A stretch of DNA of 64,000 bases from Patescibacteria group bacterium (GTDB lineage: Bacteria > Patescibacteriota > Minisyncoccia > UBA6257 > UBA9933), in the NCBI GenBank assembly GCA_038057075.1, contig JBBUDV010000006.1, forward strand, positions 2,216 to 66,215, read 5' to 3'. The position numbers and the translations under genes were made by a program. Position 1 is the stretch's first letter. Each line of letters begins with the position of its first letter. Of this stretch, positions 4,189 through 49,220 are shown in pieces. The notes beneath the pieces were generated by a model. The model did no database searches. It had not been told where the DNA came from and worked only from the letters and a program-made list of their open reading frames with translations.

Positions 4189-4624
4189 AAAACTTAGACA
4201 AAAGGGGCTGACACTGATAGAAATATTGATAACGACAACGATTATTGCGGTGATTTTCTCGCTTGGCCTTGTTTTTGGGATAGATTTTTACAGAAACTAC
4301 GCGTTTCATTCCGAAAGAGACGTAATAGTGAGTATTTTGGAAAAAGCCAGAAGTCGGGCCTTAAACAATATCAATCAGGAAGCGCATGGCGTTTATTTTT
4401 CAGGCGCGAATCACGTTATTTTTCAAGGGAATTCTTATGCCGCAAGAAATTCTTTATTTGATTTAATTATTCCAAAATCTTACTCGGCGATTTTAAGCGG
4501 ATTAAATGAAGTCGTTTTTAGCCAACTATCCGGAGAATCCAACGCGTCGGGAACGATTACTATCAGCGAAGACGGCCGGATTTCAGATATTTCAATAAAT
4601 AATGAAGGACGAATTAACTGGTAA
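4178..4624 (+). CDS. Prepilin-type N-terminal cleavage/methylation domain protein (pseudopilin/minor pilin)
   Basis: Class III leader MLNKKLRQKG|LTLIEIL with Glu at +5. The start is chosen at M8 of the ORF-track ORF (4157), which otherwise overlaps pilC by 32 nt. Confidence 0.7.
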   Translation: MLNKKLRQKGLTLIEILITTTIIAVIFSLGLVFGIDFYRNYAFHSERDVIVSILEKARSRALNNINQEAHGVYFSGANHVIFQGNSYAARNSLFDLIIPKSYSAILSGLNEVVFSQLSGESNASGTITISEDGRISDISINNEGRINW

Positions 4625-4760
4625 TCCCTCACCCTTCAAATACCGAAAACCCGAACATTTTACTTAAAAAACAAAGATTTAAAAATAAATGTTGATTTTA
4701 ATTTTGAAACGCAGAACTTGTAAAAGGTTTTATAAAATGCCGTATTTGAAGGGTGAGGGA
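4625..4760. mobile_element. IR-D family element copy 1 (18-bp terminal inverted repeats around ~100 bp AT-rich core)
   Basis: tccctcacccttcaaata (4625-4642) and tatttgaagggtgaggga (4743-4760). The left arm starts right after the upstream pilin stop codon. The right arm encodes YLKGEG of the next gene's prepilin leader, and that gene's ATG (4737) lies inside the element. Confidence 0.55.
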
Positions 4761-10303: not shown

Positions 10304-10310
10304 AATTCAA

Positions 10311-10400
10311 TTACATTTGGCAGCGAGACCGCAAAAAAAACTTAGTTTTATTTGCGGCGAGCGAACCAAATGAAAAAAATGTTACGCTCCGTAACATTTA
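10311..10400. repeat. Repeat family A copy 1 (~90 bp, two-hairpin intergenic element)
   Basis: ttacatttggcagcgagaccgcaaa...tttgcggcgagcgaaccaaatgaaaaaaatgttacgctccgtaacattt. Lies 8 nt upstream of the DMT gene start. Confidence 0.8.
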
Positions 10401-10425
10401 TTATACCATTATCGCCATTACGCTA

Positions 10426-12877: not shown

Positions 12878-12935
12878 AATTTTCTCCCTCTCCAAATTAT
12901 AAATTTGCTAACATAAGAATATCATATTCTAATGT

Positions 12936-13757
12936 TTATGCAATAATTTTGACAAATCTCCACTTTTTATACTGATCTTTGTAAAATATCCATTTTTTAT
13001 ATTTTAATTGCTTTAAAATTTTCCCGATTAATGGTTTTTGAAATGAGTCAAATTCCATCCATATTTGACAGGTTGGTTTAATATATTGAACCGTTTGTTT
13101 TAAGAATTTTTTAATTATTTTAAGTCCGTCTTTTCCCGAGAATAATGCCTTTTTTGGTTCGTATTTTAAAACCTCCTTCTGAACCCTGTTTTTCCGTTTT
13201 AGAGCGACATACGGCGGATTTGCCAAAATAAAATCGTATTTATCTTTCAATAAATTTAAAGAGTGAACGGCTGTATCAATTATATTTTTACCGCTCGGGT
13301 TAACCCGAGCGGTAAAAATATCTGCCCGTATCACGCGATAACGAGATTTGTTGATTCTATTTATTTTCAAATTTAATTTTATCTGCTTTATCAAATTAGA
13401 ATCAATTTCATAAAAATCTACTTTTGAATTTTTTACATTTTTCAGGACAGAAATTCCCACACAGCCGGAACCGGCGAAAACATCCGCTATCTTTAAAGAT
13501 AGCGGCTTAGCATTCACGGAATAATCCAAAATTTTCGCAATTACTTTTTCAACCCAAAATTCCGTTTCCGGACGTGGAATCAACGGCTTAAAAGAAAGGT
13601 CTATTTCACAGTTTAAAAACGGTTTCCATCCTACGATATAATCAACCGGCTCGCCTTTTTTCAACCGTTTTATGTCATTTTCAATTTCCGGTCGGAGTTT
13701 GCCGCCATATTTATCTTTCAAAATCCAACCGATTTCTTTATAAAAATTTTTGGACAT
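12936..13757 (-). CDS. prmC: Release factor glutamine N5-methyltransferase PrmC/HemK
   Basis: SAM motif DVFAGSGCVGISV and the NPPY catalytic motif FILANPPYV. Confidence 0.8.
   Translation of the reverse strand: MSKNFYKEIGWILKDKYGGKLRPEIENDIKRLKKGEPVDYIVGWKPFLNCEIDLSFKPLIPRPETEFWVEKVIAKILDYSVNAKPLSLKIADVFAGSGCVGISVLKNVKNSKVDFYEIDSNLIKQIKLNLKINRINKSRYRVIRADIFTARVNPSGKNIIDTAVHSLNLLKDKYDFILANPPYVALKRKNRVQKEVLKYEPKKALFSGKDGLKIIKKFLKQTVQYIKPTCQIWMEFDSFQKPLIGKILKQLKYKKWIFYKDQYKKWRFVKIIA
13283..13320. mobile_element. Palindrome-B (38-bp perfect palindrome) inside the prmC coding sequence
   Basis: tatttttaccgctcgggttaacccgagcggtaaaaata encodes IFTARVNPSGKNI between the DIF and NPPY motifs, where PrmC normally has a much shorter spacer. 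An identical copy lies at 17863-17900. Confidence 0.6.
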
Positions 13758-13846
13758 TTTACATATTATAAATGCCTTAATGATAATTATTCAACGGCAA
13801 AATAAAAAGCGCCCCAACAAATAGCGGAACGCAGAATTTAAATTAA

Positions 13847-14344
13847 CTAGATAATCACGACGCATTTTTCATTTTTTCTTTTGCTGGCTCCAAATTCGCC
13901 CAAATACGCCATTGGACCGGCAAAATGAGGATAAGAAAATTTTTTGGCGATTTCTCTTAATTCTTCAATGTCGCAGTTATAAACAAACAACCTTAAACGC
14001 CTTAACATTTTTTCCGCGACATATTCCTCTCCGAAAAATCTAATATGGTCCTTTCCCCAATGTTCGCAATAATCGACGTTGTTTTTGTCCAAAGTCTTTA
14101 TTTCAATATCTACTAATTTCCCGTCGATTACCAGCTTATGCCTACATATCCACTGGATTAGATTGCCGTCAGAACCGACATGTTCATAATCGGTAATTCC
14201 GTATTTTTCGGGATTTTCCATCAATGTCTCAAAAAAATTAATAGCAATGGCTAAAATTATTGATTCATCATGGAGCCACTGAACCGTCAAATTTTTAATC
14301 ATTTCTTTCAAATCGCTTTCTTTGAATAAAAATAATTTTTTCAT
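13847..14344 (-). CDS. Hypothetical protein
   Basis: 165 aa ORF with no recognisable motif. Confidence 0.3.
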   Translation of the reverse strand: MKKLFLFKESDLKEMIKNLTVQWLHDESIILAIAINFFETLMENPEKYGITDYEHVGSDGNLIQWICRHKLVIDGKLVDIEIKTLDKNNVDYCEHWGKDHIRFFGEEYVAEKMLRRLRLFVYNCDIEELREIAKKFSYPHFAGPMAYLGEFGASKRKNEKCVVII

Positions 14345-14428
14345 TCTCCTCTCCTTTATAACTGATTTTTTATTTTCAAAGAACCAAACTATTTTAAAAT
14401 ATTAATTTAAAAAATTATAGCTTGTCAA

Positions 14429-14488
14429 TCCCGTTAGAAATACATACAAAATTTAATAAATTTTTACTGCCCTGGATTTCTAACGGGG
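14429..14488. repeat. IR-C family element, intergenic copy
   Basis: tcccgttagaaat - 34 bp - atttctaacgggg. Confidence 0.55.
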
Positions 14489-14492
14489 TTAA

Positions 14493-14532
14493 ATAAAAAA
14501 CAGCCCTTTGATAAACTCGGGGCTGTTTTTTA
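14493..14532 (-). terminator. Bidirectional rho-independent terminator downstream of the RRM gene
   Basis: aaaaaaaacagccc...ggggctgtttttt. Confidence 0.6.
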
Positions 14533-14549
14533 TTTGTTGGTCTATATCT

Positions 14550-14897
14550 TTACCATTCCGCTTTTCTGTGTCCGCCGCCAAATCCTCCTCTGCCTCCACT
14601 GCCTCCGCTACCTCCGCGGAAACCTCCTTCACCTCTCGGTGCTCTGGGTTCCATGGGGCGAGCTTCGTTGACGGTCCAAGTCCTTCCATCAACTTCTTTT
14701 CCGTTGAACATTTCAATAGCTTTATTCGCTTCATCGTCATTGGACATTTCCACAAAACCGAATCCTTTGGAACGGCCTGAAAATTTGTCTTTAATGACGG
14801 TCGCGGATTCAACCGCGCCTGCCTGCGAAAAAGTATTTTTCAAAATGTCTTCTGAAGTGTCATAAGACAAATTGCCAACGTACAATTTCTTTGCCAT
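14550..14897 (-). CDS. RRM-type RNA-binding protein with Gly/Arg-rich tail
   Basis: RNP-2 LYVGNL and RNP-1 KGFGFVEM, with a C-terminal RGG/GGS tail. Confidence 0.85.
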   Translation of the reverse strand: MAKKLYVGNLSYDTSEDILKNTFSQAGAVESATVIKDKFSGRSKGFGFVEMSNDDEANKAIEMFNGKEVDGRTWTVNEARPMEPRAPRGEGGFRGGSGGSGGRGGFGGGHRKAEW

Positions 14898-15065
14898 TTA
14901 TTTGATTATTTCAGTAGGGCGACCCTCTCTAGTTACCCCTTCAAAAGCGCTACTAAACGAGCCCTTGCTAAAAGAAACTAACCGAGAAACCTACCCTCCA
15001 ATTTTTCTTAAATTGGATAAAAATATTATAAATTAAATGTAAATGAAAAGCAACTCTAATGGGGT

Positions 15066-16700
15066 TTACTGACCGAGTAATGATTTAAATAAATTAATCA
15101 CTTTACCCAATAATGACTCGTTTGCCGAAGACGGAGGAGGCAACGTTTCCCCGCTTGGAGGTTGCGCGGGCAACATCATGCCTCCGGGATATTGCTGCGG
15201 CTGTATTTGTATTACTCGCTGTTGTATGTTTTTTAAACATTCCTCGGGATTTTCTGATTTAGAGCAAAATTCTTTACATTCCTCGGGACTACTACAAGGC
15301 GCTTCTGCCGTTCCTTGAGGAAACATTTGAGGCGTTTGCCCCTCTACCTCTACTCCGGGCATCATTATATTTTGAGGGATGCCGGGCATTTGAGGCGCTT
15401 GCATCATATTGCCGGGCTGTTTAGAACCGTATTGTTCAAAACAACTTTTGGCTTTCTGTATAAATTCGCCTTTCTCTTCATCTTTCATAACGCCAGATTG
15501 CAATCTGCCGACGGCATCCTCGCCTAAAGTTGTTCTCAAACATTCCTTCATTTCTTGCGACATTGATTCAAATGAAGGCATACCTGTCGGACGACCGTCG
15601 CCACCGGGGCCCATCTGGCCTCCACCAACGCCTGGCGCGCCCATTACGCTTTCAAAACATGCCCGCATTTTATCTCCAATATCTCTTGGAGGCATAATGG
15701 AACCGCTTTTAAGTTTTTCCATCATTTCCGCGCCGATTGTGGAATTAAGGCATTCAATCACTTTTGGCGGCGCCTGGTTCAATATTTCTTGAAATTTTTG
15801 TTTGCCTCCTTCCATTCTTTGAATATCTTCTTGTTTTATAAAGCCGTATTCTTTCGCAAAATTAAAACAGGATTCTTGGTTTTCGGGACTGCTGCAAAAT
15901 GCCTCGCATTGTTCTTTACCGCGGCAATTGCCCGGACCTTTGCCTCCGGTTTTACGCGCCATTTCAGCTTCTTCAGCAGACATAAATCCGGCCGCCTCGG
16001 CGAATTTCATACATTCTTCAAAATGACTTTCCTCGGAACAATAAACGTCGCATTCCTTCTTGCCGCGGCACTGCGGCGGCTTTGCGCCTTTCTTAATGGC
16101 TTCTAAAACCTTTTGCGATTCTTGCTTTTCGTTTTCATCCATTAATCCGGCCGCCTGCGCGAAAATTATACACTCTTCCATATGGTCAACGCTGCCGCAG
16201 TATAAGTCGCATGATTTTTTATTGCCGCAAGAAGGCGGTTTTACGCCTTGTTTTATAGCAGCTCTCACTTTTTTAGCTTCATCTAATTCTTTTGGAGGCA
16301 ATATGTTGTTTTTTTCGGCAAATGTCACACATTCGTCTATATGGGAAATTTCATCGCAATATTTTTCACAGGAATCCTTTGTCGCGCAATTTCCAGGCCC
16401 TTTGCCGGCTGCTAAAAACTTTCTGGCGACATTAATTTTTTCTTGGCTCATTAAATTGTTCTTTTGGGCGAAATCCAAACACTTTTCCCTGTTTGCCGGC
16501 TTATCGCAATAAGCCCTGCAAGCAATTTCATTTTGGCAATTGCCCAATTCCGTAATAGGATATTGGATATTCGCCGCGACGCTTATGCCTGCGCCGGAAT
16601 CGGTTTGCGCCAGCGCGTTGCCGATTAAAATAACCGAAAATATAATTCCAAAACTTAAAACAATTGCGCTAAGATATTTTGTATTCATAATATTATTCAA
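15066..16700 (-). CDS. Secreted cysteine-rich tandem-repeat protein with Gly/Pro/Met/Gln-rich region
   Basis: Signal peptide, then about 6 copies of a ~45-aa module C-x4-5-C-x3-C-x7-8-C (e.g. GNCATKDSCEKYCDEISHIDECVTFAEKNN). Confidence 0.5.
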   Translation of the reverse strand: MNNIMNTKYLSAIVLSFGIIFSVILIGNALAQTDSGAGISVAANIQYPITELGNCQNEIACRAYCDKPANREKCLDFAQKNNLMSQEKINVARKFLAAGKGPGNCATKDSCEKYCDEISHIDECVTFAEKNNILPPKELDEAKKVRAAIKQGVKPPSCGNKKSCDLYCGSVDHMEECIIFAQAAGLMDENEKQESQKVLEAIKKGAKPPQCRGKKECDVYCSEESHFEECMKFAEAAGFMSAEEAEMARKTGGKGPGNCRGKEQCEAFCSSPENQESCFNFAKEYGFIKQEDIQRMEGGKQKFQEILNQAPPKVIECLNSTIGAEMMEKLKSGSIMPPRDIGDKMRACFESVMGAPGVGGGQMGPGGDGRPTGMPSFESMSQEMKECLRTTLGEDAVGRLQSGVMKDEEKGEFIQKAKSCFEQYGSKQPGNMMQAPQMPGIPQNIMMPGVEVEGQTPQMFPQGTAEAPCSSPEECKEFCSKSENPEECLKNIQQRVIQIQPQQYPGGMMLPAQPPSGETLPPPSSANESLLGKVINLFKSLLGQ

Positions 16701-16977
16701 ATGGATTTGTTTTAATGTCTTTGAACGGATTTGTTTTAGAAATGGGATTTACGTCAGGATTATTAATTGACGGCAAAACGCCTTGCGCCGCGCTTTTTTC
16801 CAATATTTCCCCCGTTTCTCCGATTGTTTGTAAAATTTGTTCCTGCGACGTTGTTTTTGTTTTTTTCCAATAAAAATATCCGCCGACGCCCAACGCGATT
16901 ATAACAACAACGGCGATTATCATAAAAATCGTTTTTTTATTTATGCCGTCTTGATTTAATTTCAATTCGTTCTCCAT
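16693..16977 (-). CDS. Small single-TM protein
   Basis: MENELKLNQDGINKKTIFMIIAVVVIIALGVGGYFYW... overlaps the 544-aa gene's start by 8 nt. The upstream part of the track ORF looks like promoter sequence (tgttataata). Confidence 0.4.
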   Translation of the reverse strand: MENELKLNQDGINKKTIFMIIAVVVIIALGVGGYFYWKKTKTTSQEQILQTIGETGEILEKSAAQGVLPSINNPDVNPISKTNPFKDIKTNPFE

Positions 16978-17088
16978 AAGAAATTTACTTATATTTATTA
17001 TAACATATAGATAATTCGGCAAAATGTGGATAATCCAATTTCTAAAAAAATGCCCTTTGACGTTGCGTCAAAGGGCTCTTTTTTCATG

Positions 17089-17286
17089 TTATCCGACCAC
17101 ATATAAATATCCGGCAATTCTGTTGCGTCGCCTCTTGCCATTAAAACATTTAATAGACATAACAGGAATTTTTTGCCTCTGAAAATTGCCTTTTAGACAT
17201 CTGTATGTGATTGCGACAATAACTCTTTTGCGAACGTCATTTCTATTGCAACGCAAACTTTTACATCCAAAACAGAATAATTGCAT
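17089..17286 (-). CDS. Small basic Cys-rich ORF
   Basis: Strong SD AAAGGAGG 7 nt upstream of ATG, and a hairpin terminator right after the stop. Confidence 0.3.
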   Translation of the reverse strand: MQLFCFGCKSLRCNRNDVRKRVIVAITYRCLKGNFQRQKIPVMSIKCFNGKRRRNRIAGYLYVVG

Positions 17287-17321
17287 TTCATCGCCTCCTT
17301 TTATCCGATTCTTACATTTGG

Positions 17322-17404
17322 CAGCGAGTCCACAAAGGGAACTTTAATTTCATTTGCGGCGAGCGAACCAAATGAAAAAATGTTACGCTCTGTGGCATTT
17401 TTTA
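17322..17404. repeat. Repeat family A copy 2
   Basis: ttacatttggcagcgagtccacaaagg...tttgcggcgagcgaaccaaatgaaaaaatgttacgctctgtggcatttttt. Confidence 0.8.
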
Positions 17405-17547
17405 TTGAATTTTAATTATTGGAACTAAAAATAGAATATCACTTAAATACTATTTTGTAAAGTGTTTTACTTTTTGCGCAAAAAGTTCGGCGCAAAAAAA
17501 GGCCCCGACAAAATGTCAGAGCCAAAGCGTTAAAACCGAAGTCTGGA

Positions 17548-17661
17548 CTACTTGGAGGGACAGCCGTAGTGGCACAGTTCACCGCCTCTGGAGCAGCTAC
17601 CGCAGGAGCTGATTGTCACTGTCTTGTTTGCCGGCTCTTTCTTGCTGTCGCCTTTTTTCAT
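17548..17661 (-). CDS. Small Cys-rich 37-aa ORF (unknown peptide)
   Basis: MKKGDSKKEPANKTVTISSCGSCSRGGELCHYGCPSK. SD GGAGA sits 6 nt upstream; a sigma70-like promoter (TTGACA-17-TATTTT) and a ~90-nt 5' leader precede it. Too short to appear in the ORF track. Confidence 0.35.
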   Translation of the reverse strand: MKKGDSKKEPANKTVTISSCGSCSRGGELCHYGCPSK

Positions 17662-17750
17662 GCCAGATCTCCTTTTTGTCCGGATTCCTACTTATCCGAC
17701 ATCTAGCCGGCTTGTGGATTCCGAACCATCCTTGGTCATGTTCTGATTAA

Positions 17751-17779
17751 AAAATAGCATATTTATATCAGATTGTCAA
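17751..17779 (-). promoter_or_regulatory. Putative sigma70-like promoter for the 37-aa ORF
   Basis: Minus-strand TTGACA - 17 nt - TATTTT. Confidence 0.4.
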
Positions 17780-17862
17780 GTATTTTAAAACATCATTATT
17801 CGCTTTTATGGAACTTTAATAATTATAGCGCAATTTGTCGTTTTGTGAATAACCTTAAATGA

Positions 17863-17900
17863 TATTTTTACCGCTCGGGTTAACCCGAGCGGTAAAAATA
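17863..17900. repeat. Palindrome-B copy 2, intergenic, terminator-like
   Basis: Identical 38-bp palindrome tatttttaccgctcgggttaacccgagcggtaaaaata, 6 nt after the CAP gene stop. Confidence 0.7.
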
Positions 17901-17905
17901 GTTGA

Positions 17906-18787
17906 TTACTGAAGACATTGATTCAATAAAAACACTTGATTGTTATAAGTTTCAATTATTGTCTTTGTTTGATTAATAAGAGTGTTATACCTGTTTACCA
18001 GCTCATTATATTCTTCTATTTTTTGATTTAAGGAAGGATCGCCTCTTTCCATACTTTCAATCTCGGCCTTTTTCGTTTCAAGAATTGCCGCTAATTGTTC
18101 TATCTCTTTTTTATTAGTATTAATCGCTGATTTTAAATTCTGTTCAATTGCCGGACAATCGGAAGTCGGCCGGCCGAATTCCTGAACCGCAATCCAGACT
18201 TCTTTTCCCTGATAAATTCCTTTCAACGCCGCTACTCCTATTTCTTTATATTTAGAATTTAAGATATTAGCGCGATGCCCCGAAGAATTCATCCAACCTT
18301 CTACCACTGCTTTGTCATTTTCAAAATTTCCCAAAATTAAATTCTCGCCAACTTCCAAATAATCATAGCCCGCTTGTTTTGCCAACTCCGCCGGACCAAC
18401 GCCGTCAACGGGTGAGATATGCTCAAAATATTGATTTTTAAACATATCCCGCGCTTTAGCCAAAGCCGCCTTATTTAAATTTTCATTCTCTTTAAGCGTT
18501 GGAAGTACGGCCATTGCTCTTTCAGTATTAGTCCAAATAATTATTCCTAACGAAGTTAAATTTAATTTATGAACTTCAAAAATTTCTTTAACTATCTTAA
18601 GCGGCGGAGCGGAAATATTTTCAGCGGCTGATTGCGGCGCGGTCAAAAATTCGTTGAATTTTTGATTGGGTTTTAAAGGTTCGGAAAGCGGTTTAGTAGC
18701 CGGCAACTGAAAATTTTTTAAATCGTTTTGAAAAACAAACAGCCCGATTAAAATAAATAAAGCGACAATTAATAACCTAAAAGACAT
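17906..18787 (-). CDS. CAP/SCP/YkwD-like domain protein with C-terminal coiled coil
   Basis: SSGHRANILNSKYKEIGVA matches the CAP signature. Carries an N-terminal TM. Confidence 0.7.
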   Translation of the reverse strand: MSFRLLIVALFILIGLFVFQNDLKNFQLPATKPLSEPLKPNQKFNEFLTAPQSAAENISAPPLKIVKEIFEVHKLNLTSLGIIIWTNTERAMAVLPTLKENENLNKAALAKARDMFKNQYFEHISPVDGVGPAELAKQAGYDYLEVGENLILGNFENDKAVVEGWMNSSGHRANILNSKYKEIGVAALKGIYQGKEVWIAVQEFGRPTSDCPAIEQNLKSAINTNKKEIEQLAAILETKKAEIESMERGDPSLNQKIEEYNELVNRYNTLINQTKTIIETYNNQVFLLNQCLQ

Positions 18788-18804
18788 TTCTGTTTTTTAT
18801 TGCC

Positions 18805-20121
18805 TTAAAAACCTCTGCCAAAGCCCGATGATCTTGACGTGAAATGTTTCGTCCGTCCGCCAAATGCGGAACTCACCGCGCTGTCAGACGCTTTTTTGCC
18901 GACAAAAGTAAGCGCTATTCCTTTTTTGTCCGCTCTGCCGGTTCTTCCTATTCTATGAATATAATCCTCATAGGTTTTCGGAATATCGTAATTAATAACA
19001 TGGCTTACTTCCGGAATATCCAGTCCTCTGGCAGCCACATCGGTTGCCACCATTATCTGAATTTTATTTTCTTTAAATAATTTTAAAGCAAATTGACGGT
19101 TTGAATGAGTTTTATCTCCGTGTATTGAAACCGTTTTAAAACCGCGCGCGTTTAAAGAATTAGAAAGCCGCTCAACTCCCATTTTAGTTGTTCCAAAAAT
19201 CAAAACCTTTTTAAAATTTTCCTTAATCAGCAAATCATGCAATATCTCTGTTTTATCATCAGCCATCCCGATTCTTATCACGTCTTGGTCCACATTGGAT
19301 GAAGTGTCTCTGATTTTTGTTTCAATTTTTACCGGATTTTTCAAAAAACTTTGCGACAAATTTTCAATTTCTCGCGACAAAGTGGCGCAAAACAAAAGTG
19401 TCTGTTTTTCTTTGAACATTTGTCCCAATATTAATTTTATATCATTAATAAAACCCATATCAAGCATTCTGTCGGCCTCGTCCAAAACAACATTTTTACA
19501 TTCGTTCAAATTTATAATTTTTCTTTCAATCAAGTCCTTTAATCTTCCGGGAGTTCCTATTAAAACATTGCATCCGCGCCTTAATTGCATAATCTGTTCT
19601 CTCATACTCGCGCCTCCCACAATCGCGACGGAATAAATATTTAATCCTTTTGAAAAGTCCCTAAATTCGCCGTTTATTTGGAGAGCGAGCTCTCTGGTCG
19701 GAGCCATTATCAAGACCCTTTCCCTTTTATTTTTAATGATTTTATCAATAAGCGGAATCAAAAATGCCGCTGTTTTCCCTGTTCCAGTATCCGCCATGCC
19801 GATTATATCCTTCCCTTCTAAAATTTCCGAAATTGCTTTATCCTGAATCGCGGTTGGTTTAATATAACCTTTTTGAGTAATATTGTTTTTTAATTGCTCG
19901 TCAATTTTATAATCGCTGAATTTATTAGTTGAAACATAATCAACAATATTATTATTTACGCTTGCTTTATTGATAAATTTTGATTCATCAATTTTTGAGC
20001 CCGAAAAACCGCGCGCCTTTCCTCCGCCGCGCCCAAAACTGCGCCCGCCAAATCCATGGCCGCCGCCAAAACTGCCCCTTGATCCGCTTCCGGATCTTTT
20101 GTTATTAAAATTTCCTCTCAT
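18805..20121 (-). CDS. DEAD-box ATP-dependent RNA helicase with RGG-rich termini
   Basis: Q motif, AxTGTGKT, PTRELA, DEAD, SAT and HRIGRTGR motifs. Confidence 0.9.
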   Translation of the reverse strand: MRGNFNNKRSGSGSRGSFGGGHGFGGRSFGRGGGKARGFSGSKIDESKFINKASVNNNIVDYVSTNKFSDYKIDEQLKNNITQKGYIKPTAIQDKAISEILEGKDIIGMADTGTGKTAAFLIPLIDKIIKNKRERVLIMAPTRELALQINGEFRDFSKGLNIYSVAIVGGASMREQIMQLRRGCNVLIGTPGRLKDLIERKIINLNECKNVVLDEADRMLDMGFINDIKLILGQMFKEKQTLLFCATLSREIENLSQSFLKNPVKIETKIRDTSSNVDQDVIRIGMADDKTEILHDLLIKENFKKVLIFGTTKMGVERLSNSLNARGFKTVSIHGDKTHSNRQFALKLFKENKIQIMVATDVAARGLDIPEVSHVINYDIPKTYEDYIHRIGRTGRADKKGIALTFVGKKASDSAVSSAFGGRTKHFTSRSSGFGRGF

Positions 20122-20228
20122 CTCAACAAAAAATAGTAATCCGAGATTACTATTGAGAGATCGCTATTTGGAGATCGCCGAATACGAATTAATCTGAGAT
20201 TGCTAAGTATTTAATTTATTATATCAAT

Positions 20229-20255
20229 ATTATAATACTTATCTTTATTTGTCAA
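20229..20255 (-). promoter_or_regulatory. Putative promoter of the DEAD-box helicase gene
   Basis: Minus-strand TTGACA - 15 nt - TATAAT, then a ~120-nt repeat-rich 5' leader. Confidence 0.4.
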
Positions 20256-20305
20256 TAGCTCGCTTTGTCATTTCCGCGAAAACGGAAATCTAATCATAAT
20301 ATTCG

Positions 20306-20725
20306 CTATTTTACTCCGTGTTCATTAAAAAATGCCGAATACTTTTTATCCGCGACAAGTATGTGTTTTAACAGCCAATTACCGGCATATTCGGCAACTT
20401 CTTCGGATAATTTCTCAATATTTTGATCATCTTTCCTGATTCTGCTTATATAACCATTGGCCATTTCCCTGAACTGGTTATGCGCTTCCACATGAGGAAC
20501 CGCATCTGGATAATCTAATTTATCAAAAAGCTCTTCTTCGGTGCCCAAATGGTAAAACGCGTAATTTCCCATTTGGTTGACAATATCAAATAAAACTTCC
20601 TTTTCTGACGCTTTACTGTTTATAAAATCGGCGATTTTATTTACAATATCCAAAAAATGTCGATGTTGCTCGTCAATCATCTCAATACTCACGCTATAAT
20701 CTTTTGTCCAAATAAATTTTTTCAT
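20306..20725 (-). CDS. Hemerythrin-like (bacteriohemerythrin) protein
   Basis: His/Glu ligands spaced in the HHE pattern (H..HF...H...EE...H...H..D). Confidence 0.7.
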   Translation of the reverse strand: MKKFIWTKDYSVSIEMIDEQHRHFLDIVNKIADFINSKASEKEVLFDIVNQMGNYAFYHLGTEEELFDKLDYPDAVPHVEAHNQFREMANGYISRIRKDDQNIEKLSEEVAEYAGNWLLKHILVADKKYSAFFNEHGVK

Positions 20726-22732: not shown

Positions 22733-23158
22733 CTATTTCAAATTAACTATATAGGTTTTGATAAATTTTTCTATTGCCAATACAGTTTCGGTTTTTAATT
22801 TTGGGTTTGATTCCGCCACCCATTTGGCAAAATTATAAAGTTCTTGATTATCAACTTCCAACCATTTTTTGTTTTTGTGTAAAAAATAAAAAAGTGTCAT
22901 CATGGCAATCCGTTTATTTCCATTTTTAAACGGATGGTTTTTAACCATTAAATAAAATAATACCGACACTTTCCCAATAAATCCTTTATATAACGGCTTG
23001 CCGCCGAAAGTTTGGAATGGCGCGATTAAACAACTTTCTAAAATATTAGGATAACGCGAACTAAAATCAGGAATTGGCTCATCCCATGCCATCATTTCTT
23101 TTGCCAACCAATAAGCGACATATTCAACTTGAATGATTGAAATTATTTTTATTTTCAT
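22733..23158 (-). CDS. Doc/Fic-family toxin, copy 1
   Basis: Doc-type motif HPFKNGNKR. Confidence 0.7.
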   Translation of the reverse strand: MKIKIISIIQVEYVAYWLAKEMMAWDEPIPDFSSRYPNILESCLIAPFQTFGGKPLYKGFIGKVSVLFYLMVKNHPFKNGNKRIAMMTLFYFLHKNKKWLEVDNQELYNFAKWVAESNPKLKTETVLAIEKFIKTYIVNLK

Positions 23159-23338
23159 TATTCTTTTCCTAATAATTTCAAAGTTTCGCCATATTCCTTG
23201 ATGGTTTTTTTAACGGCTTTTTCAATTTCTCGTTTTTTATCTTCAGTTAAAACCTCTCCCAAAACATCCGGCAAATTTTTTTTATTAATCATAAAATTGC
23301 GACCGATTTTTTGGGCCTTAATTTTACCGGACTTGATC
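22755..23338. repeat. Large direct repeat arm 1 (doc + 3' part of the HTH gene)
   Basis: About 584 bp near-identical to 26076-26659; the flanks have diverged. Confidence 0.85.
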
Positions 23339-23412
23339 TTTTTAAACACAGCTACCCGGCTGATACCCAAAAGCTTTGCCACCTCAATTGTGGAAAACAA
23401 TTTTTTATTCAT
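23158..23412 (-). CDS. Excisionase-family HTH DNA-binding protein (putative antitoxin/regulator), copy 1
   Basis: STIEVAKLLGISRVAVFKKIKSGKIKAQKIGRNFMI. Confidence 0.6.
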   Translation of the reverse strand: MNKKLFSTIEVAKLLGISRVAVFKKIKSGKIKAQKIGRNFMINKKNLPDVLGEVLTEDKKREIEKAVKKTIKEYGETLKLLGKE

Positions 23413-23428
23413 ATTTTACAATAATAAT

Positions 23429-23460
23429 CTATGTTAACTGACAAAGCAAGGTTAACATAG
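23429..23460. promoter_or_regulatory. Inverted-repeat operator upstream of HTH-doc copy 1
   Basis: ctatgttaac - N12 - gttaacatag, 17 bp from the HTH start. Confidence 0.4.
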
Positions 23461-26056: not shown

Positions 26057-26479
26057 TTAAGATTTTACTATGTATGTTTTGATAAATTTTTCTATTGCCA
26101 ATACAGTTTCGGTTTTTAATTTTGGGTTTGATTCCGCCACCCATTTGGCAAAATTATAAAGTTCTTGATTATCAACTTCCAACCATTTTTTGTTTTTGTG
26201 TAAAAAATAAAAAAGTGTCATCATGGCAATCCGTTTATTTCCATTTTTAAACGGATGGTTTTTAACCATTAAATAAAATAATACCGACACTTTCCCAATA
26301 AATCCTTTATATAACGGCTTGCCGCCGAAAGTTTGGAATGGCGCGATTAAACAACTTTCTAAAATATTAGGATAACGCGAACTAAAATCAGGAATTGGCT
26401 CATCCCATGCCATCATTTCTTTTGCCAACCAATAAGCGACATATTCAACTTGAATGATTGAAATTATTTTTATTTTCAT
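26057..26479 (-). CDS. Doc/Fic-family toxin, copy 2
   Basis: Identical over most of its length to copy 1; the C-terminus differs (KTYIVKS). Confidence 0.7.
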   Translation of the reverse strand: MKIKIISIIQVEYVAYWLAKEMMAWDEPIPDFSSRYPNILESCLIAPFQTFGGKPLYKGFIGKVSVLFYLMVKNHPFKNGNKRIAMMTLFYFLHKNKKWLEVDNQELYNFAKWVAESNPKLKTETVLAIEKFIKTYIVKS

Positions 26480-26659
26480 TATTCTTTTCCTAATAATTTC
26501 AAAGTTTCGCCATATTCCTTGATGGTTTTTTTAACGGCTTTTTCAATTTCTCGTTTTTTATCTTCAGTTAAAACCTCTCCCAAAACATCCGGCAAATTTT
26601 TTTTATTAATCATAAAATTGCGACCGATTTTTTGGGCCTTAATTTTACCGGATTTAATA
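26076..26659. repeat. Large direct repeat arm 2
   Basis: Near-identical to 22755-23338, offset 3321 bp. Confidence 0.85.
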
Positions 26660-26736
26660 TTCTTAAATACCGCTACTCGACTAATACCTAACAATTTAGC
26701 GACTTCAATTGTAGATAAAAACTGTTTCCTTATCAT
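26479..26736 (-). CDS. Excisionase-family HTH protein, copy 2
   Basis: N-terminus diverged (MIRKQFLSTIEVAK...); the rest is identical to copy 1. Confidence 0.6.
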   Translation of the reverse strand: MIRKQFLSTIEVAKLLGISRVAVFKNIKSGKIKAQKIGRNFMINKKNLPDVLGEVLTEDKKREIEKAVKKTIKEYGETLKLLGKE

Positions 26737-26752
26737 ATTACCAATATAATTT

Positions 26753-26781
26753 ATGTTAACCTATGAGTCAATGGTTAACAT
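26753..26781. promoter_or_regulatory. Inverted-repeat operator upstream of HTH-doc copy 2
   Basis: atgttaacc - N11 - ggttaacat. Confidence 0.4.
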
Positions 26782-26910
26782 AAGTTAACAAAAAACAGAG
26801 GCATTAACCTCTGTTCGTACACACTGGCTCCGCATCGTGGACGACGTTAGAACTATTTTTGAGAAACAAAATGAGTATATTTATATACTTATTTTAAAAT
26901 AAAAAACCAG

Positions 26911-31993: not shown

Positions 31994-32023
31994 ATGTTTT
32001 TAAGATTACTTGCCGCTATTTAT

Positions 32024-32113
32024 TACATTTGGCAGCGAGTCCACAAAGAAAACTTTGTTTTATTTGTGGCGAGAGAACCAAATGAAAAAATGTTACGTTT
32101 CGTGACATTTTTT
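32024..32113. repeat. Repeat family A copy 4
   Basis: ttacatttggcagcgagtccacaaagaaaactttgttttatttgtggcgagagaaccaaatgaaaaaatgttacgtttcgtgacatttttt, between the dnaJ stop and the next gene's start. Confidence 0.8.
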
Positions 32114-33254
32114 ATTCTTCTTCTTTTTCCAAATCCTCTAAAAGTTTTTTAGCCGCGCCGCTGATTTTTTTAGGAGTTTTAACTTTAAGTTTAAGCAATA
32201 AATCGCCTCGGCCACTCCGGTTGAAATGAGGCATTCCTTCGCCGGAAATTCTGATAAACCGGTTAATCTCAAAATCCGCCGGTATTTTCACTTTTATTTT
32301 TCCGCCCGAAATAACGGGAATCTCAAATTCTCTGACGCCGGCAAAATAAAGTAAAAGCGCGATTAAACTGATTTCCTTTTCAATTATCAAATCGTCACTT
32401 TGTCTGGAAAAAATTTTATGAAACTTAATCCTGATAATAATAAATAAATCCCCTTCTTCCATTCCTCTTTCTCCGGCTTCTCCGCCGCCTTTGATTTTTA
32501 TTATCTGATTGTCGGACACGCCGGGCAGAATTTTGATTGTCGTTTCCTTTTCTCCTTTCACGGCTCCCCTGCCTTTGCAAGAATCGCAAATTTTATTGGG
32601 CGTCTGACCCGAGCCAAAACAGCCGGAACACATTTTAACCTGCGTAAAACTGCCGAAAAAAGTGTTCCGATTTTCTTTTATTTCGCCTCTGCCCCCGCAA
32701 ACCGAACACGTGGAAAATCCGGATTTCGGTTCATGGCCCAAGCCGCTGCATTTAACGCATCTGACATCAACTTTATATTTGATTTTTTCCTCCGTGCCGG
32801 AAAACGCCTCTTCCAAACTTATTTCTTGAATCAATTGGATATCGGAACCGTGCTTATAAGTCCGCCTTTGCTCCTTTACGCCCAAACCTTCAAAAAACGC
32901 GTCAAAAATATCACCGATATCCGCGGCTCCTCCTCCGCCAAAATCAAAATTAAAACCAGAAGACCCGCCTTGAGCGCCGCCGAAGGGCCCGCCTTGACCG
33001 AAATCCCAGCCGCCGAATGGACTGCCTTGAGCGCCGCCGGAAGACTGTTCCTCAAAGACCCTGCCGAATTGGTCGTACTGATTCCGTTTTTGAGGATTGG
33101 ATAAAATCTGATACGCTTCGCTTAATTCTTTAAATTTTTTCTCGTCGCCGCCCGGTTTGTCAGGATGATATTTATGCGCCAGCTTACGATACGCTTTTTT
33201 TATGTCGTCTTGCGTGGCGTTTTTTTCAATACCTAAAATTTTGTAATAATTCAT
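32112..33254 (-). CDS. dnaJ: Chaperone DnaJ
   Basis: J domain with HPD; G/F-rich region; four CxxCxGxG zinc-finger repeats. Confidence 0.9.
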
Positions 33255-48231: not shown

Positions 48232-49194
48232 TCAAAATTTCAATGCCTCCAAGGCCTTTATCCTTTCTTCAACCGGCGGATGAGTCATAAAAAGCTTGGC
48301 AATGCCGGAAAGTTTAGCCCCCTTAAAGGGGTTGTCCACCCATAGATGCGCGGTGGCGTTATTGGCTATTTTCATCGGAATCGCGCTTGCGGAAATTTTT
48401 TCCAAAGCCGAAGCAAGACCTGAAGGATTTTTGGTCAAAACCGCGCCCGAAGCATCGGCCAAAAATTCCCTTTTTCTTGATATCGCCAATTGGATAAGCA
48501 TGGCCGAAATCGGCGCGACAATCGCCAAAATAATTCCGACAACGGCAAAAATTTGATTGCCTCCCCTTTCATTATCTCTATTTCTAAAGCCGCCGAAAAA
48601 CGCGCTTCTTAAAAAGATATCCGAAACAATTGAAATAAAACCGACCAAAACCACGACAATTGTTGAAATTAGAATGTCGCGATTGGCAATATGAGACAAT
48701 TCATGCGCAAGCACGCCTTCTAATTCTTTTGCGTTCAATCTTTGAAGTAATCCCGTTGTAACCGCAATCGCGGCGTGTTTTGAATTTCTTCCGGTTGCGA
48801 AAGCGTTAGGTTGAGCTTCATCAATAATATAAATTTTAGGCGCGGGCAAAACGGCTTTTTTCGCCAATTCCCCTACAATTTTAAAAAGTTCGGGATAATT
48901 TTTCTTTTCAACCGGTTTGGCTTTTGTCATCGCCAAAACGATTTTATCCGAATACCAAAAAGAAATAACATTCATCAGCAAACTGAAAACAACCGCAAAA
49001 TATAAAATTGACGGATTGCCGTAAATTCTTGAAAAAAGCCAGCCAATTCCGATGACGCCGATTAAAAAAGCCGCAATTAAAATAAACGTCCTTCTAATAT
49101 TGGAATTTTTACATTTGGCAGCGAGACCGCAAAGAAAACTTTGTTTTATTTGCGGCGAGGGAACTAAATGAAAAAATGTTACGCGTTGTGACAT
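48232..49194 (-). CDS. htpX: HtpX-like M48 zinc metalloprotease (true start uncertain)
   Basis: HELSHIANRD HExxH motif and TM segments. The first ~31 codons of the track ORF are read from repeat-A copy 5. Confidence 0.75.
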   Translation of the reverse strand: MSQRVTFFHLVPSPQIKQSFLCGLAAKCKNSNIRRTFILIAAFLIGVIGIGWLFSRIYGNPSILYFAVVFSLLMNVISFWYSDKIVLAMTKAKPVEKKNYPELFKIVGELAKKAVLPAPKIYIIDEAQPNAFATGRNSKHAAIAVTTGLLQRLNAKELEGVLAHELSHIANRDILISTIVVVLVGFISIVSDIFLRSAFFGGFRNRDNERGGNQIFAVVGIILAIVAPISAMLIQLAISRKREFLADASGAVLTKNPSGLASALEKISASAIPMKIANNATAHLWVDNPFKGAKLSGIAKLFMTHPPVEERIKALEALKF

Positions 49195-49199
49195 TTTTT
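49109..49199. repeat. Repeat family A copy 5
   Basis: ttacatttggcagcgagaccgcaaagaaaactttgttttatttgcggcgagggaactaaatgaaaaaatgttacgcgttgtgacatttttt; overlaps the annotated htpX start. Confidence 0.8.
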
Positions 49200-49220
49200 A
49201 TACGAAATGAAATTCATTAT

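What the first reader, a model, noticed from the sequence alone, without database searches (positions are those of the whole stretch)
15066..17286. Cluster of unusual secreted or Cys-rich proteins, including a 6x four-cysteine tandem-repeat protein
The 544-aa protein has a signal peptide and about six ~45-aa modules C-x4-5-C-x3-C-x7-8-C-x2-FA...G (e.g. CATKDSCEKYCDEISHIDECVTFAEKNN; CGNKKSCDLYCGSVDHMEECIIFAQAAG), then a Gly/Pro/Met/Gln-rich low-complexity region. It is translationally coupled to a 94-aa single-TM protein. A 65-aa very basic Cys-rich ORF with an AAAGGAGG SD and its own terminator follows. The module does not match a domain I can name. It may be a lineage-specific extracellular metal- or disulfide-rich scaffold.
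Basis: partly seen in the sequence, partly recalled or inferred. Interest (0 to 1): 0.5.

Follow-up and report, generated by a model that had tools for sequence, protein, structure and literature searches.

The report
Cysteine-stapled surface repeat protein with anchor
The window holds a real, strongly conserved two-gene unit found only in the tiny Parcubacteria (Patescibacteria): an exported helical protein built from repeated four-cysteine modules, always paired with a small membrane protein; it matches no described family or solved fold, and its function is unknown.

Summary
The protein (540 aa from its ATG) has a signal peptide. It carries five tandem modules of 48-53 aa, plus one isolated module, all with the exact pattern C-x5-C-x3-C-x8-C. 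It also has two copies of a 2-Cys helical domain, Gly/Pro/Gln/Met-rich linkers and a C-terminal amphipathic helix.

It belongs to a large Patescibacteria family: more than 1,062 clusters at 90% identity, and 1,745 representatives at 50% identity for the module alone. The canonical member has six tandem modules. There is no Pfam, NCBIfam or PDB sequence match. AlphaFold gives a confident all-alpha model (pLDDT above 90 over the array). The model has no significant structural neighbour.

The 94-aa upstream gene is an obligate partner. It encodes one membrane helix and a C-terminal tail of the type NPxxKxNPFKDIKTNPFE. It is present in 62 of 73 loci, and also next to divergent 984-1555-aa relatives.

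The 65-aa ORF is an orphan and not part of the unit.

Exported proteins of these bacteria show a strong bias toward even cysteine counts (p = 1.8e-5). This favours disulfide staples over metal sites.

Best reading: a membrane-tethered, disulfide-stapled surface scaffold. Its function is unproven, and a metal-binding role is not excluded.

The parts
15066..16688 (-). Gene for the 540-aa exported Cys-module repeat protein. The mechanical ORF starts at a TTG at 16700; the ATG at 16688 matches the database protein.
   Evidence: 100% identical to P0001 / NCBI AAB757_00930. More than 1,062 homologues.
16608..16688 (-). Signal peptide (aa 1-27, MNTKYLSAIVLSFGIIFSVILIGNALA|Q).
   Evidence: By inspection of the sequence. 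The N-terminal K, hydrophobic stretch and 'AQ' are conserved in the family consensus. pLDDT is below 50 here. No dedicated signal-peptide predictor was available.
15774..16568 (-). Array of five tandem four-Cys modules (aa 41-305). Each module is three helices, with C-x5-C-x3-C-x8-C spanning the loop, helix A and helix B.
   Evidence: Regex positions. AlphaFold pLDDT above 90, all helical. Identity between orthologues at each module position is 63-75%, against 27-54% between positions. One canonical module (3 or 4) is missing relative to the 6-module consensus.
15639..15773 (-). First 2-Cys helical domain (aa 306-350; C313 and C344 are invariant in the family).
   Evidence: Invariant columns. 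pLDDT about 90.
15420..15563 (-). Second, lineage-specific copy of the 2-Cys helical domain (aa 376-423; C383, C416).
   Evidence: Two copies occur in only 5 of 120 family members, all in the window's lineage. pLDDT 86-94.
15210..15308 (-). Isolated C-terminal mini-module (aa 461-493; C465, C471, C475, C484) embedded in Gly/Pro/Gln/Met-rich linkers.
   Evidence: pLDDT 84-90 for aa 470-490. The family consensus has one or two such mini-modules.
15069..15209 (-). Pro-rich spacer and C-terminal amphipathic/hydrophobic helix (ESLLGKVINLFKSLLGQ).
   Evidence: Helix 526-539 in the model. A motif of the type PPPSS..SLLGxxxNxFxxxFxR recurs in the family, and 80 of 120 members have a hydrophobic tail. 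It is also present in divergent long relatives.
16693..16977 (-). Gene for the 94-aa bitopic partner protein: one TM helix, an ectodomain helix and an NP/NPF-rich C-terminal tail (NNPDVNPISKTNPFKDIKTNPFE). Its stop lies 4 nt before the ATG of the large gene.
   Evidence: About 50% identical homologues lie directly upstream in L001-L003. Present in 62 of 73 loci and 61 loci by clustering. 120 homologues, all 52-122 aa. Present next to divergent variants. AlphaFold: confident TM helix (pLDDT 82-94 for aa 11-40) within one helix 14-64; tail unstructured.
16997..17005 (-). Promoter-like extended -10 (TGTTATAAT) for the two-gene unit.
   Evidence: Read from the sequence. Analogous TGnTATAAT or TATAAT boxes lie before the small gene in L008 and L060. 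This is an inference, not a tested promoter.
17052..17076 (-). Intrinsic-terminator-like hairpin that separates the 65-aa ORF from the pair.
   Evidence: 11-bp stem, 7 GC pairs, T-run.
17089..17286 (-). 65-aa basic ORF. It is NOT part of the conserved unit. It is either an orphan small gene or a non-coding transcript.
   Evidence: Only its own 95%-identity cluster turns up among 5.8 billion proteins. It is absent next to the pair in all other loci. Against strain L005 there are 6 synonymous and 3 non-synonymous changes. It is preceded by a copy of a 95-nt repeated upstream element.

Best explanation
The feature is a conserved two-gene cell-envelope unit of Parcubacteria (Patescibacteria).

The large protein:
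- It is exported by the Sec route (inferred from the signal peptide).
- Outside the cell it folds into a rigid all-alpha array of about 53-aa three-helix modules (predicted).
- Each module is locked by its four invariant cysteines, most likely as two disulfides (inferred).
- After the array come a 2-Cys helical domain, a flexible Gly/Pro/Gln-rich spacer that could cross the wall, and a short C-terminal amphipathic or hydrophobic helix that could sit at the membrane (inferred).

The small protein:
- It is co-translated with the large one.
- It is a bitopic membrane protein. Its unstructured extracellular tail carries three to four NP(F/L/I/Y) motifs.
- Wherever a partner was looked for it accompanies the array: 62 of 73 species loci, and all three divergent long relatives examined. 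I therefore propose that the tail docks onto the repeat array, or onto the C-terminal helix, and tethers or organises the array at the cell surface (inferred, not shown).

The array itself would act as a stable stalk or binding platform. Some relatives carry a ConA-like lectin (Laminin_G_3) domain, which fits a surface-display or adhesion role.
For: Family size and conservation:
- More than 1,062 homologues, the top 120 at 541-1225 bits and 39-100% identity, all without a Pfam domain.
- 360 matching stretches that encode a relative in a one-genome-per-species collection; every named record is Patescibacteria, an unclassified MAG, or a likely mis-binned label.
- The module profile alone finds 1,745 representatives at 50% identity. 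The best 150 have 5-13 modules.

Fixed architecture:
- 110 of 120 members have exactly six tandem modules.
- Identity at each module position between orthologues is 63-75%, against 27-54% between positions in one protein.
- All four cysteines are present in all but 2 of the fully aligned copies among 2,047 module instances.

Structure:
- AlphaFold with a 120-sequence alignment gives pLDDT above 90 across aa 40-350, all helical, pTM 0.56. The linkers have pLDDT below 50.

Obligate partner:
- The small gene lies directly upstream on the same strand in 62 of 73 loci and 61 loci by clustering.
- The tail NPxxKxNPFKDIKTNPF is near-invariant.
- The partner is also present next to relatives of 984 aa (with a lectin domain), 1,555 aa and 1,431 aa.
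- The AlphaFold model of the partner has a TM helix and a disordered tail.

Disulfides:
- Among ORFs from these loci, exported or anchored proteins with at least 2 Cys have even counts in 46 cases and odd counts in 5. Cytoplasmic proteins give 149 even and 100 odd. Fisher p = 1.8e-5.
- The invariant 2-Cys domain is most simply explained by a disulfide.

Surface role and selection:
- Laminin_G_3 domains occur in three long relatives.
- A C-terminal hydrophobic helix is conserved in 80 of 120 members and in divergent relatives.
- Selection is purifying: dN/dS is 0.20 against a sister strain.
Against: - No experiment or complex model shows that the two proteins touch.
- The parity test used a crude hydrophobicity rule for 'exported'.
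- Identity of about 50% across candidate phyla is high for a surface adhesin. It would fit a housekeeping or ligand-handling role better.
- The conserved C-x3-C in a helix with nearby His/Asp/Glu, Met-rich linkers in this lineage, and Cu-type P1B ATPases upstream of the pair in 3 of 77 loci keep a thiolate-metal role open.
- No expression or localisation data were found (literature searches).
Confidence: 0.5

Rival explanations
1. Extracytoplasmic metal (Cu(I) or Zn) binding or buffering array. The four cysteines of each module stay reduced and form a thiolate site. The protein sequesters or hands over metal outside the membrane, working with P1B-type efflux ATPases.
For: - The Cys4 sets are invariant, including a helical C-x3-C.
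- His, Asp and Glu are conserved next to the Cys in three modules.
- The linkers in the window's lineage are Met-rich.
- A Cu-type P1B ATPase (CPC or CPH motif, two of them with an HMA domain) is the next gene upstream of the pair in L008, L039 and L060. In L008 it is joined by an HMA-DsbD_2-cupredoxin protein.
- My rough estimate is that about 0.2 such adjacencies would arise by chance in 77 loci.
Against: - The pair has its own promoter-like -10 box between the ATPase and the small gene in L008 and L060. In L039 the ATPase is divergent.
- 74 of 77 loci have no metal gene beside the pair.
- The conserved His is replaced by Asn in half of the module positions and sits in a helix N-cap position.
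- Exported proteins of these organisms show the even-Cys bias typical of disulfide formers.
- There is no match to HMA, DUF326/Csp or any other metal-binding family.
- Met-richness is not a property of the family as a whole: Met is 4.5% of the post-array region.
Confidence: 0.15
2. Extracytoplasmic thiol-disulfide relay or redox buffer. The many Cys pairs, with the small membrane protein, serve oxidative folding or protection against oxidants in organisms that lack the usual quinone-linked DsbB/VKOR route.
For: - The parity bias shows that disulfides are made in exported proteins.
- A highly conserved, abundant-looking Cys-pair protein is always tied to a membrane protein.
- A recent preprint reports that gaps remain in knowledge of bacterial disulfide-forming pathways (abstract of 10.64898/2026.03.05.709764, seen).
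- That CPR bacteria generally lack quinone biosynthesis is my own background knowledge; it was not tested here.
Against: - There is no thioredoxin-like fold and no CxxC motif.
- The small partner has no cysteines or cofactor motifs.
- Position-specific conservation of whole modules looks structural.
- The presence or absence of Dsb or VKOR genes in these genomes was not examined.
Confidence: 0.07
3. Secreted effector, toxin or defensin-like antimicrobial directed at the host or at competitors.
For: - The protein is Cys-rich and secreted.
- 21 of 63 members give weak sub-threshold hits to the Pfam AtDEF-like family (best E = 1.4e-4), and 9 of 63 to ADAM10_Cys-rich.
- Between sister strains the locus is more diverged than its flanks: 90% nucleotide identity against 97-99%.
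Against: - The predicted fold is all-alpha, not the cysteine-stabilised alpha/beta fold of defensins.
- Conservation is at housekeeping level and the architecture is fixed.
- dN/dS is 0.20.
- The protein is always paired with a membrane protein and has a C-terminal hydrophobic helix.
- The neighbourhood is ordinary core genes, not an island.
Confidence: 0.05

Closest known systems
Helicobacter cysteine-rich proteins (HcpA/B/C), i.e. Sel1-like-repeat proteins with one disulfide per alpha/alpha repeat (from my own knowledge of the family)
   Same: Both are secreted tandem arrays of short helical repeats in which regularly spaced cysteines staple the helices of each repeat. Alpha-solenoids (Sel1, TPR, PPR) are the top Foldseek hits, though not significant.
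   Different: No Sel1 or TPR profile match appears in any of 63 members at E <= 1. The repeat is 48-53 aa with three helices and four Cys (C-x5-C-x3-C-x8-C), not about 36 aa with two helices and two Cys. The family is restricted to Patescibacteria and always has the small NPF-tail partner.
Gram-positive wall-spanning surface proteins (folded N-terminal domains, a Pro/Gly-rich wall-spanning region and a C-terminal anchor)
   Same: The order of parts is the same: signal peptide, folded repeat domains, Pro/Gly-rich low-complexity spacer, short hydrophobic C-terminus ending in a basic residue. Some relatives carry a lectin-like domain.
   Different: There is no LPXTG motif or sortase signal (sequence inspection; no LPXTG_anchor hit for the large protein). 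The C-terminal helix has only about 14 hydrophobic or amphipathic residues. A separate small membrane protein is obligatory.
Copper storage proteins (Csp1/Csp3, DUF326): Cys-lined helical bundles that bind Cu(I) (from my own knowledge)
   Same: Both are all-alpha with cysteines spaced i, i+4 on helices. A Cu-type ATPase is the next gene upstream of the pair in 3 loci.
   Different: There is no DUF326 profile match. The window protein has four Cys per 50-aa three-helix module rather than about 13-18 Cys lining one four-helix bundle. It has a Sec-type signal. The even-Cys bias of exported proteins argues for disulfides.
Golgi apparatus protein 1 / Cys-rich FGF receptor repeats (Pfam Cys_rich_FGFR; from my own knowledge)
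   Same: Both are long tandem arrays of extracytoplasmic units of about 50-60 aa, each with four conserved cysteines.
   Different: There is no profile match at E <= 1. That family is eukaryotic only, and no partner protein is known for it.

Membership tests
Sel1-like repeat / Hcp family | Match to the Sel1 (or TPR) sequence profile | tested here: not met
   hmmscan of the window protein and of 63 family members against Pfam-A at E <= 1 lists no Sel1 or TPR family.
Sel1-like repeat / Hcp family | Repeat of about 36-44 aa made of two antiparallel helices, with one disulfide per repeat | tested here: not met
   The period is 48-53 aa with three helices per unit in the AlphaFold model and four Cys per unit.
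Sel1-like repeat / Hcp family | Structural superposition on a solved SLR or TPR solenoid | tested here: not met
Copper storage protein (Csp, DUF326) | Match to the DUF326 profile, or Cys-lined four-helix bundle | tested here: not met
Structural or regulatory Cys4 metal site (Zn, Cu or Fe-S) | Four thiolates converging on one point with metal-compatible geometry | not testable with these tools
   Model coordinates are not returned, and no ion-aware prediction is available. Indirect evidence (the Cys parity bias) argues against it.
Disulfide-stapled extracytoplasmic domain (generic kind) | The organism forms disulfides in exported proteins (even-Cys bias) | tested here: met
   Exported or anchored ORFs with at least 2 Cys: 46 even, 5 odd. 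Cytoplasmic: 149 even, 100 odd. Fisher p = 1.8e-5. The 'exported' classifier was crude.
Disulfide-stapled extracytoplasmic domain (generic kind) | Export signal, and an even, invariant number of cysteines per domain | tested here: met
   Signal peptide by inspection. 28 Cys in total. Four per module in all but 2 of the fully aligned copies among 2,047 instances. Two per 2-Cys domain, invariant.
LPXTG / sortase-anchored surface protein | C-terminal LPXTG-type motif followed by a TM segment and a basic tail | tested here: not met
   No LPXTG in the sequence. NCBIfam LPXTG_anchor gives no hit for the large protein. The tail is PPPSS..SLLGxxxNxFxxxFxR.
Defensin-like (Pfam AtDEF-like, PF25052) | Cysteine-stabilised alpha/beta fold and a profile match above threshold | tested here: not met
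   Only weak hits in 21 of 63 members (best E = 1.4e-4), and none for the window protein. The predicted structure has no beta strands.
Cys_rich_FGFR (GLG1) repeat | Match to the PF00839 profile | tested here: not met
   Not listed at E <= 1 for the window protein or among the 25 families shown of the 32 matched by the 63 members.

The most novel reading that the evidence does not exclude
The pair is a previously undescribed two-component envelope apparatus specific to Parcubacteria. A bitopic 'NPF-tail' protein docks a disulfide-stapled (or thiolate-metal) helical repeat array. The array would be central to how these episymbionts build their surface or attach to partners, or it would be their way of handling thiol and metal chemistry outside the membrane without a conventional quinone-linked Dsb system. 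In either case the Cys4 three-helix module would be a new domain and fold family.
Probability: 0.25. Interest if true: 0.75.

Novelty: new variant of a known kind. Interest (0 to 1): 0.55.

Why it matters
Parcubacteria are among the most abundant uncultivated bacteria in groundwater, and almost nothing is known about their surface. This two-gene unit has several properties that make it worth study:
- It is as conserved as housekeeping genes, at about 50% identity across candidate phyla.
- It occurs in hundreds of species.
- It has no annotation in Pfam or NCBIfam and no solved structural relative.
- It gives a confident structure prediction.

That makes it a concrete, testable candidate for a core envelope or attachment component. 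It is also a clean case for defining a new domain family with its obligate partner. The Cys-parity result suggests that these reduced-genome bacteria routinely make extracytoplasmic disulfides, which raises the question of how they do so.

Tried and rejected
- Known-family searches: Pfam and NCBIfam on the three ORFs gave nothing meaningful. Pfam on 63 members at E <= 1 gave only spurious Cys-pattern hits. A PDB sequence profile gave no hit.
- Rfam on 13500-19000 gave no credible RNA family.
- Copper hypothesis: I followed the ATPase neighbours and found independent promoter-like sites and only 3 of 77 adjacencies. It is kept as a minority rival.
- Disulfide connectivity from co-loss of cysteines was uninformative, because the cysteines are essentially never lost.
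- The 65-aa ORF as part of the system is rejected. It has no homologues beyond its own cluster and is absent from all other loci.
- Five literature searches found no paper describing the family.
- The conserved His/Asp/Glu near the Cys were considered as a metal site. They are more simply read as helix N-capping residues, since His alternates with Asn between module positions.
Full report
**1. What is in the sequence**

The ORF list shows a 544-aa ORF on the minus strand at 15066..16700, a 109-aa ORF at 16693..17022 and a 65-aa ORF at 17089..17286.

The large ORF most likely starts at the ATG at 16688, giving 540 aa. That product is 100% identical to the NCBI MAG protein AAB757_00930, 'Patescibacteria group bacterium'.

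It has 28 cysteines. Twenty-four of them sit in six copies of the exact pattern C-x5-C-x3-C-x8-C. Five copies are tandem, with the first Cys at aa 51, 101, 154, 207 and 255 (spacing 50, 53, 53, 48). One copy is isolated at aa 465.

The other four cysteines form two copies of a different helical unit, ECL..T.G....L.SG ... CFE (C313/C344 and C383/C416). Between and after these units lie Gly/Pro/Gln/Met-rich stretches. The protein ends in an amphipathic helix, ESLLGKVINLFKSLLGQ.

The small gene is best read as 94 aa (16693..16977). Its TAA stop lies 4 nt before the ATG of the large gene, and no Shine-Dalgarno sequence lies between them, so translational coupling is plausible.

On the coding strand the 65-aa ORF lies upstream of the pair. 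A strong terminator-like hairpin (17076..17052) and a TGTTATAAT extended -10 box (17005..16997) separate it from the pair.

**2. The large protein belongs to a large, uncharacterised Patescibacteria family**

- A search of 5.8 billion clusters returned more than 1,062 homologues.
- The best 120 score 541-1225 bits at 39-100% identity.
- None has a precomputed Pfam domain. Every source name is 'hypothetical protein' apart from one 'proline-rich domain-containing protein'.
- A scan of one genome per species found 360 stretches that encode a relative. The named ones are Wolfe-, Nealson-, Jorgensen-, Staskawicz-, Yanofsky-, Harrison-, Niyogi-, Kaiser-, Taylor- and Gribaldobacteria, or 'Minisyncoccia'. 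These belong to the Parcubacteria group of Patescibacteria.
- A few labels (Omnitrophica, Methylomirabilis, Gammaproteobacteria, and generic 'Saccharibacteria' TPA labels) are probably binning or labelling artefacts. That is my inference.

The canonical architecture is six tandem modules at fixed spacing, found in 110 of 120 members. After them come one 2-Cys domain, low-complexity linkers with one or two mini-modules, a Pro-rich region and a hydrophobic C-terminal tail.

Each module position has its own identity. Orthologous identity is 63-75% per position, against 27-54% between positions of the same protein. This is an old, frozen six-fold duplication, not a drifting repeat.

The window protein is a lineage variant. 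It has lost one unit: its third module is about equally close to canonical modules 3 and 4. It has also duplicated the 2-Cys domain, a state seen in only 5 of 120 members.

A profile made only from the window's six modules finds 1,745 representatives at 50% identity in a library of 1.84 billion (1,450 at E <= 1e-10, 909 at E <= 1e-30). Among the best 150, copy number runs from 5 to 13 and length from 316 to 1,555 aa.

Across 2,047 module instances in 267 proteins, all four cysteines are present in every fully aligned copy except two.

**3. No known family or fold**

- Pfam and NCBIfam give nothing for the window protein.
- Scanning 63 members at E <= 1 gives only scattered Cys-pattern hits: AtDEF-like in 21 of 63 (best E = 1.4e-4) and ADAM10_Cys-rich in 9 of 63. 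No Sel1, TPR, DUF326, HMA or FGFR-repeat family appears.
- A family profile finds nothing among all PDB sequences at E <= 1.

AlphaFold2 with the 120-sequence alignment gives mean pLDDT 77.8 and pTM 0.56. pLDDT is above 90 over about aa 40-350 and again over the second 2-Cys domain and the C-terminal mini-module. The linkers and signal peptide are below 50. The fold is entirely helical, with three helices per module.

Within a module, C1 lies in the loop before helix A, C2 and C3 lie one turn apart in helix A, and C4 lies in the second turn of helix B.

- Foldseek against PDB gives nothing below E = 0.56. The top, non-significant hits are alpha-solenoids: PPR, TPR/LGN, AlgK and Sel1.
- Foldseek against viral models gives nothing.
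- The AlphaFold-database library was not available.

**4. The small membrane protein is an obligate partner**

In the first long contigs examined, a gene of about 90 aa sat 2-4 nt upstream of the large gene. Its product is about 50% identical to the window's 94-aa protein and has a near-invariant tail, N-P-x-x-K-x-N-P-F-K-D-I-K-T-N-P-F-E.

Across the species loci, 62 of 73 with a complete large gene have such an ORF directly upstream on the same strand. In an all-against-all clustering of neighbours it is the only widely conserved neighbour, found in 61 loci at a median distance of -4 nt. The next most frequent neighbour occurs in 11 loci.

The partner family has 120 detectable members, all 52-122 aa and all unnamed or hypothetical, apart from one automated 'CpaB' label that I regard as spurious.

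AlphaFold models one continuous helix from aa 14 to 64. Only the TM part is confident (pLDDT 82-94 for aa 11-40). The NP-rich tail (aa 65-94) is unstructured, with pLDDT about 62.

The partner is also present next to very divergent relatives:
- the 984-aa lectin-domain protein P0339, with stop/start overlap and tail ...QTNPFAAETNPFENEANPFIDAYKNPFE;
- the 1,555-aa P0263;
- the 1,431-aa P0289.

The elements common to all large proteins are the N-terminal [FY]P[IV]xELGNC motif with the module array, and the C-terminal hydrophobic helix. One of these is the likely contact for the partner.

**5. Disulfides or metal?**

I could not read model coordinates, so I tested the organisms instead.

From the fetched loci and the window I took non-overlapping ORFs of at least 100 aa and classified them by a simple hydrophobicity rule. 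Exported or N-terminally anchored proteins with at least two Cys have even counts in 46 cases and odd counts in 5. Cytoplasmic ones have 149 even and 100 odd. Fisher p = 1.8e-5. This is the signature used to infer extracytoplasmic disulfide formation, so disulfide staples are the simplest reading of the invariant Cys4 and Cys2 sets.

For the metal alternative:
- A Cu-type P1B ATPase (CPC or CPH motif, two of them with an HMA domain) is the next gene upstream of the pair in L008, L039 and L060.
- In L008 there is also an HMA-DsbD_2-cupredoxin gene.
- My rough estimate is that about 0.2 such adjacencies would arise by chance.

Against it:
- The pair keeps its own -10-like box in L008 and L060.
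- 74 of 77 loci show no such neighbour.
- The conserved His alternates with Asn between module positions, in what looks like a helix N-cap.
- Met-richness is lineage-specific: Met is 4.5% of the post-array region family-wide.

I keep metal binding as a 0.15 rival.

**6. Most likely mechanism**

*Shown:*
- a conserved, purifying-selected (dN/dS 0.20) exported protein of rigid helical Cys-stapled modules;
- an obligate co-encoded bitopic partner with a motif-rich tail;
- low-complexity Pro/Gly/Gln spacers and a conserved C-terminal hydrophobic helix;
- lectin-like Laminin_G_3 domains in three relatives.

*Inferred:*
- The array is a disulfide-stabilised stalk or platform displayed outside the membrane.
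- The spacer crosses the wall.
- The C-terminal helix and/or the partner's NPF tail hold the array at the surface.
- The role is structural, or in binding and adhesion.

The high conservation is unusual for an adhesin and leaves room for a more basic envelope function.

**7. The 65-aa ORF**

It has a good Shine-Dalgarno sequence and a terminator. Against the sister strain it shows 6 synonymous and 3 non-synonymous differences in its frame. The alternative frame called in that strain is broken by a stop codon in the window.

Its only relative among 5.8 billion clusters is its own 95%-identity cluster, called by ENA and Logan but not by NCBI. It is absent from every other locus. It is not part of the conserved unit. 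Whether it is a real small protein cannot be decided here.

**8. Comparison with known kinds, and novelty**

In principle the array resembles disulfide-stapled helical repeat proteins such as the Helicobacter Hcp / Sel1-like proteins. In layout it resembles Gram-positive wall-spanning surface proteins. It fails every membership test I could run for these, and for the Csp, FGFR-repeat, defensin-like and LPXTG families.

I therefore file it as a new variant of a known kind: an exported, disulfide-rich helical repeat scaffold. Its module and obligate partner are, as far as these libraries and five literature searches show, undescribed.

Interest is moderate to good. It is not a surprise in kind, but it is a widespread, highly conserved, confidently modelled and fully unannotated two-gene unit in a major uncultivated lineage.

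Noticed in passing
window 10310-10404, 17308-17406, 32018-32116, 49105-49203 (all read on the - strand): A conserved element of about 95 nt (86-91% identical between copies) occurs four times. Each copy lies immediately 5' of a minus-strand ORF: an EamA-type transporter, the 65-aa ORF, a 154-aa unknown followed by PCMT, and an M48 (HtpX-like) peptidase followed by a GGDEF protein. RNAalifold predicts two hairpins, but only 2 pairs show compensatory change. The copy at 17308-17406 had no Rfam match. It could be a shared promoter or leader, or a new cis-regulatory RNA.
   Followed up: partly
window 17548-17661 (-), with promoter-like site 17779-17751 and terminator 17523-17501: A 37-aa ORF, MKKGDSKKEPANKTVTISSCGSCSRGGELCHYGCPSK, has four Cys (C-x2-C-x7-C-x3-C). 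It has an AGGAG Shine-Dalgarno sequence, a TTGACA-17-TATTTT promoter-like site and its own terminator. It is identical in the sister-strain contigs and is not in the protein collection. It could be a small Cys peptide or part of a non-coding RNA of about 250 nt; the RNA fold z-score is only -1.8.
   Followed up: partly
window 15061-17087 compared with the flanks 17085-20539 and 14491-15059: Against sister-strain contigs L005-L007 the two-gene unit is only about 90% identical in DNA (dS 0.30). The upstream flank is 98.7-99.2% identical and the downstream flank 96.9%. The nearby methyltransferase gene (12894-13814) is only 79% identical. This is a mosaic pattern that suggests allelic replacement by recombination.
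   Followed up: partly
L005 5497-5633 (immediately after the large-gene stop) and window 4622-4759: The sister strains carry a 137-nt insertion directly after the stop codon of the large gene. The insertion is absent at that site in the window but is 89% identical to window 4622-4759. It may be a small mobile or repeated intergenic element.
   Followed up: no
window 13278-13322 and 17858-17900: The same 40-43-nt palindromic hairpin (ACCGCTCGGGTTAACCCGAGCGGT with flanks) occurs behind two different genes, the methyltransferase and the CAP-domain protein. It is a reused terminator-like element.
   Followed up: no
window 22743-23459 and 26064-26782: A 720-bp direct duplication at 94.6% identity. 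One copy overlaps the Fic/DOC-family gene at 22733-23158.
   Followed up: no
all fetched Parcubacteria loci plus the window: Predicted exported proteins show a strong bias toward even cysteine counts (46 even, 5 odd among those with at least 2 Cys). This implies routine extracytoplasmic disulfide formation in these reduced genomes. Which enzymes do this was not examined.
   Followed up: partly
L008 1955-5601; L060 1349-3523; L039 3089-5392: Copper-type P1B ATPases are the next gene upstream of the pair in three unrelated loci. In L008 there is also an HMA-DsbD_2-cupredoxin fusion protein. This is more adjacencies than I would expect by chance, but the pair has its own promoter-like box in L008 and L060.
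   Followed up: yes
proteins P0284, P0339, P0391, P0325 (relatives, not in the window): Some long relatives carry an extra N-terminal domain of about 130 aa (motif SF.KD.SGLFT.T.KD). P0284, P0339 and P0391 also carry a C-terminal Laminin_G_3 lectin-like domain. P0263 has 140 cysteines in 1,555 aa.
   Followed up: partly
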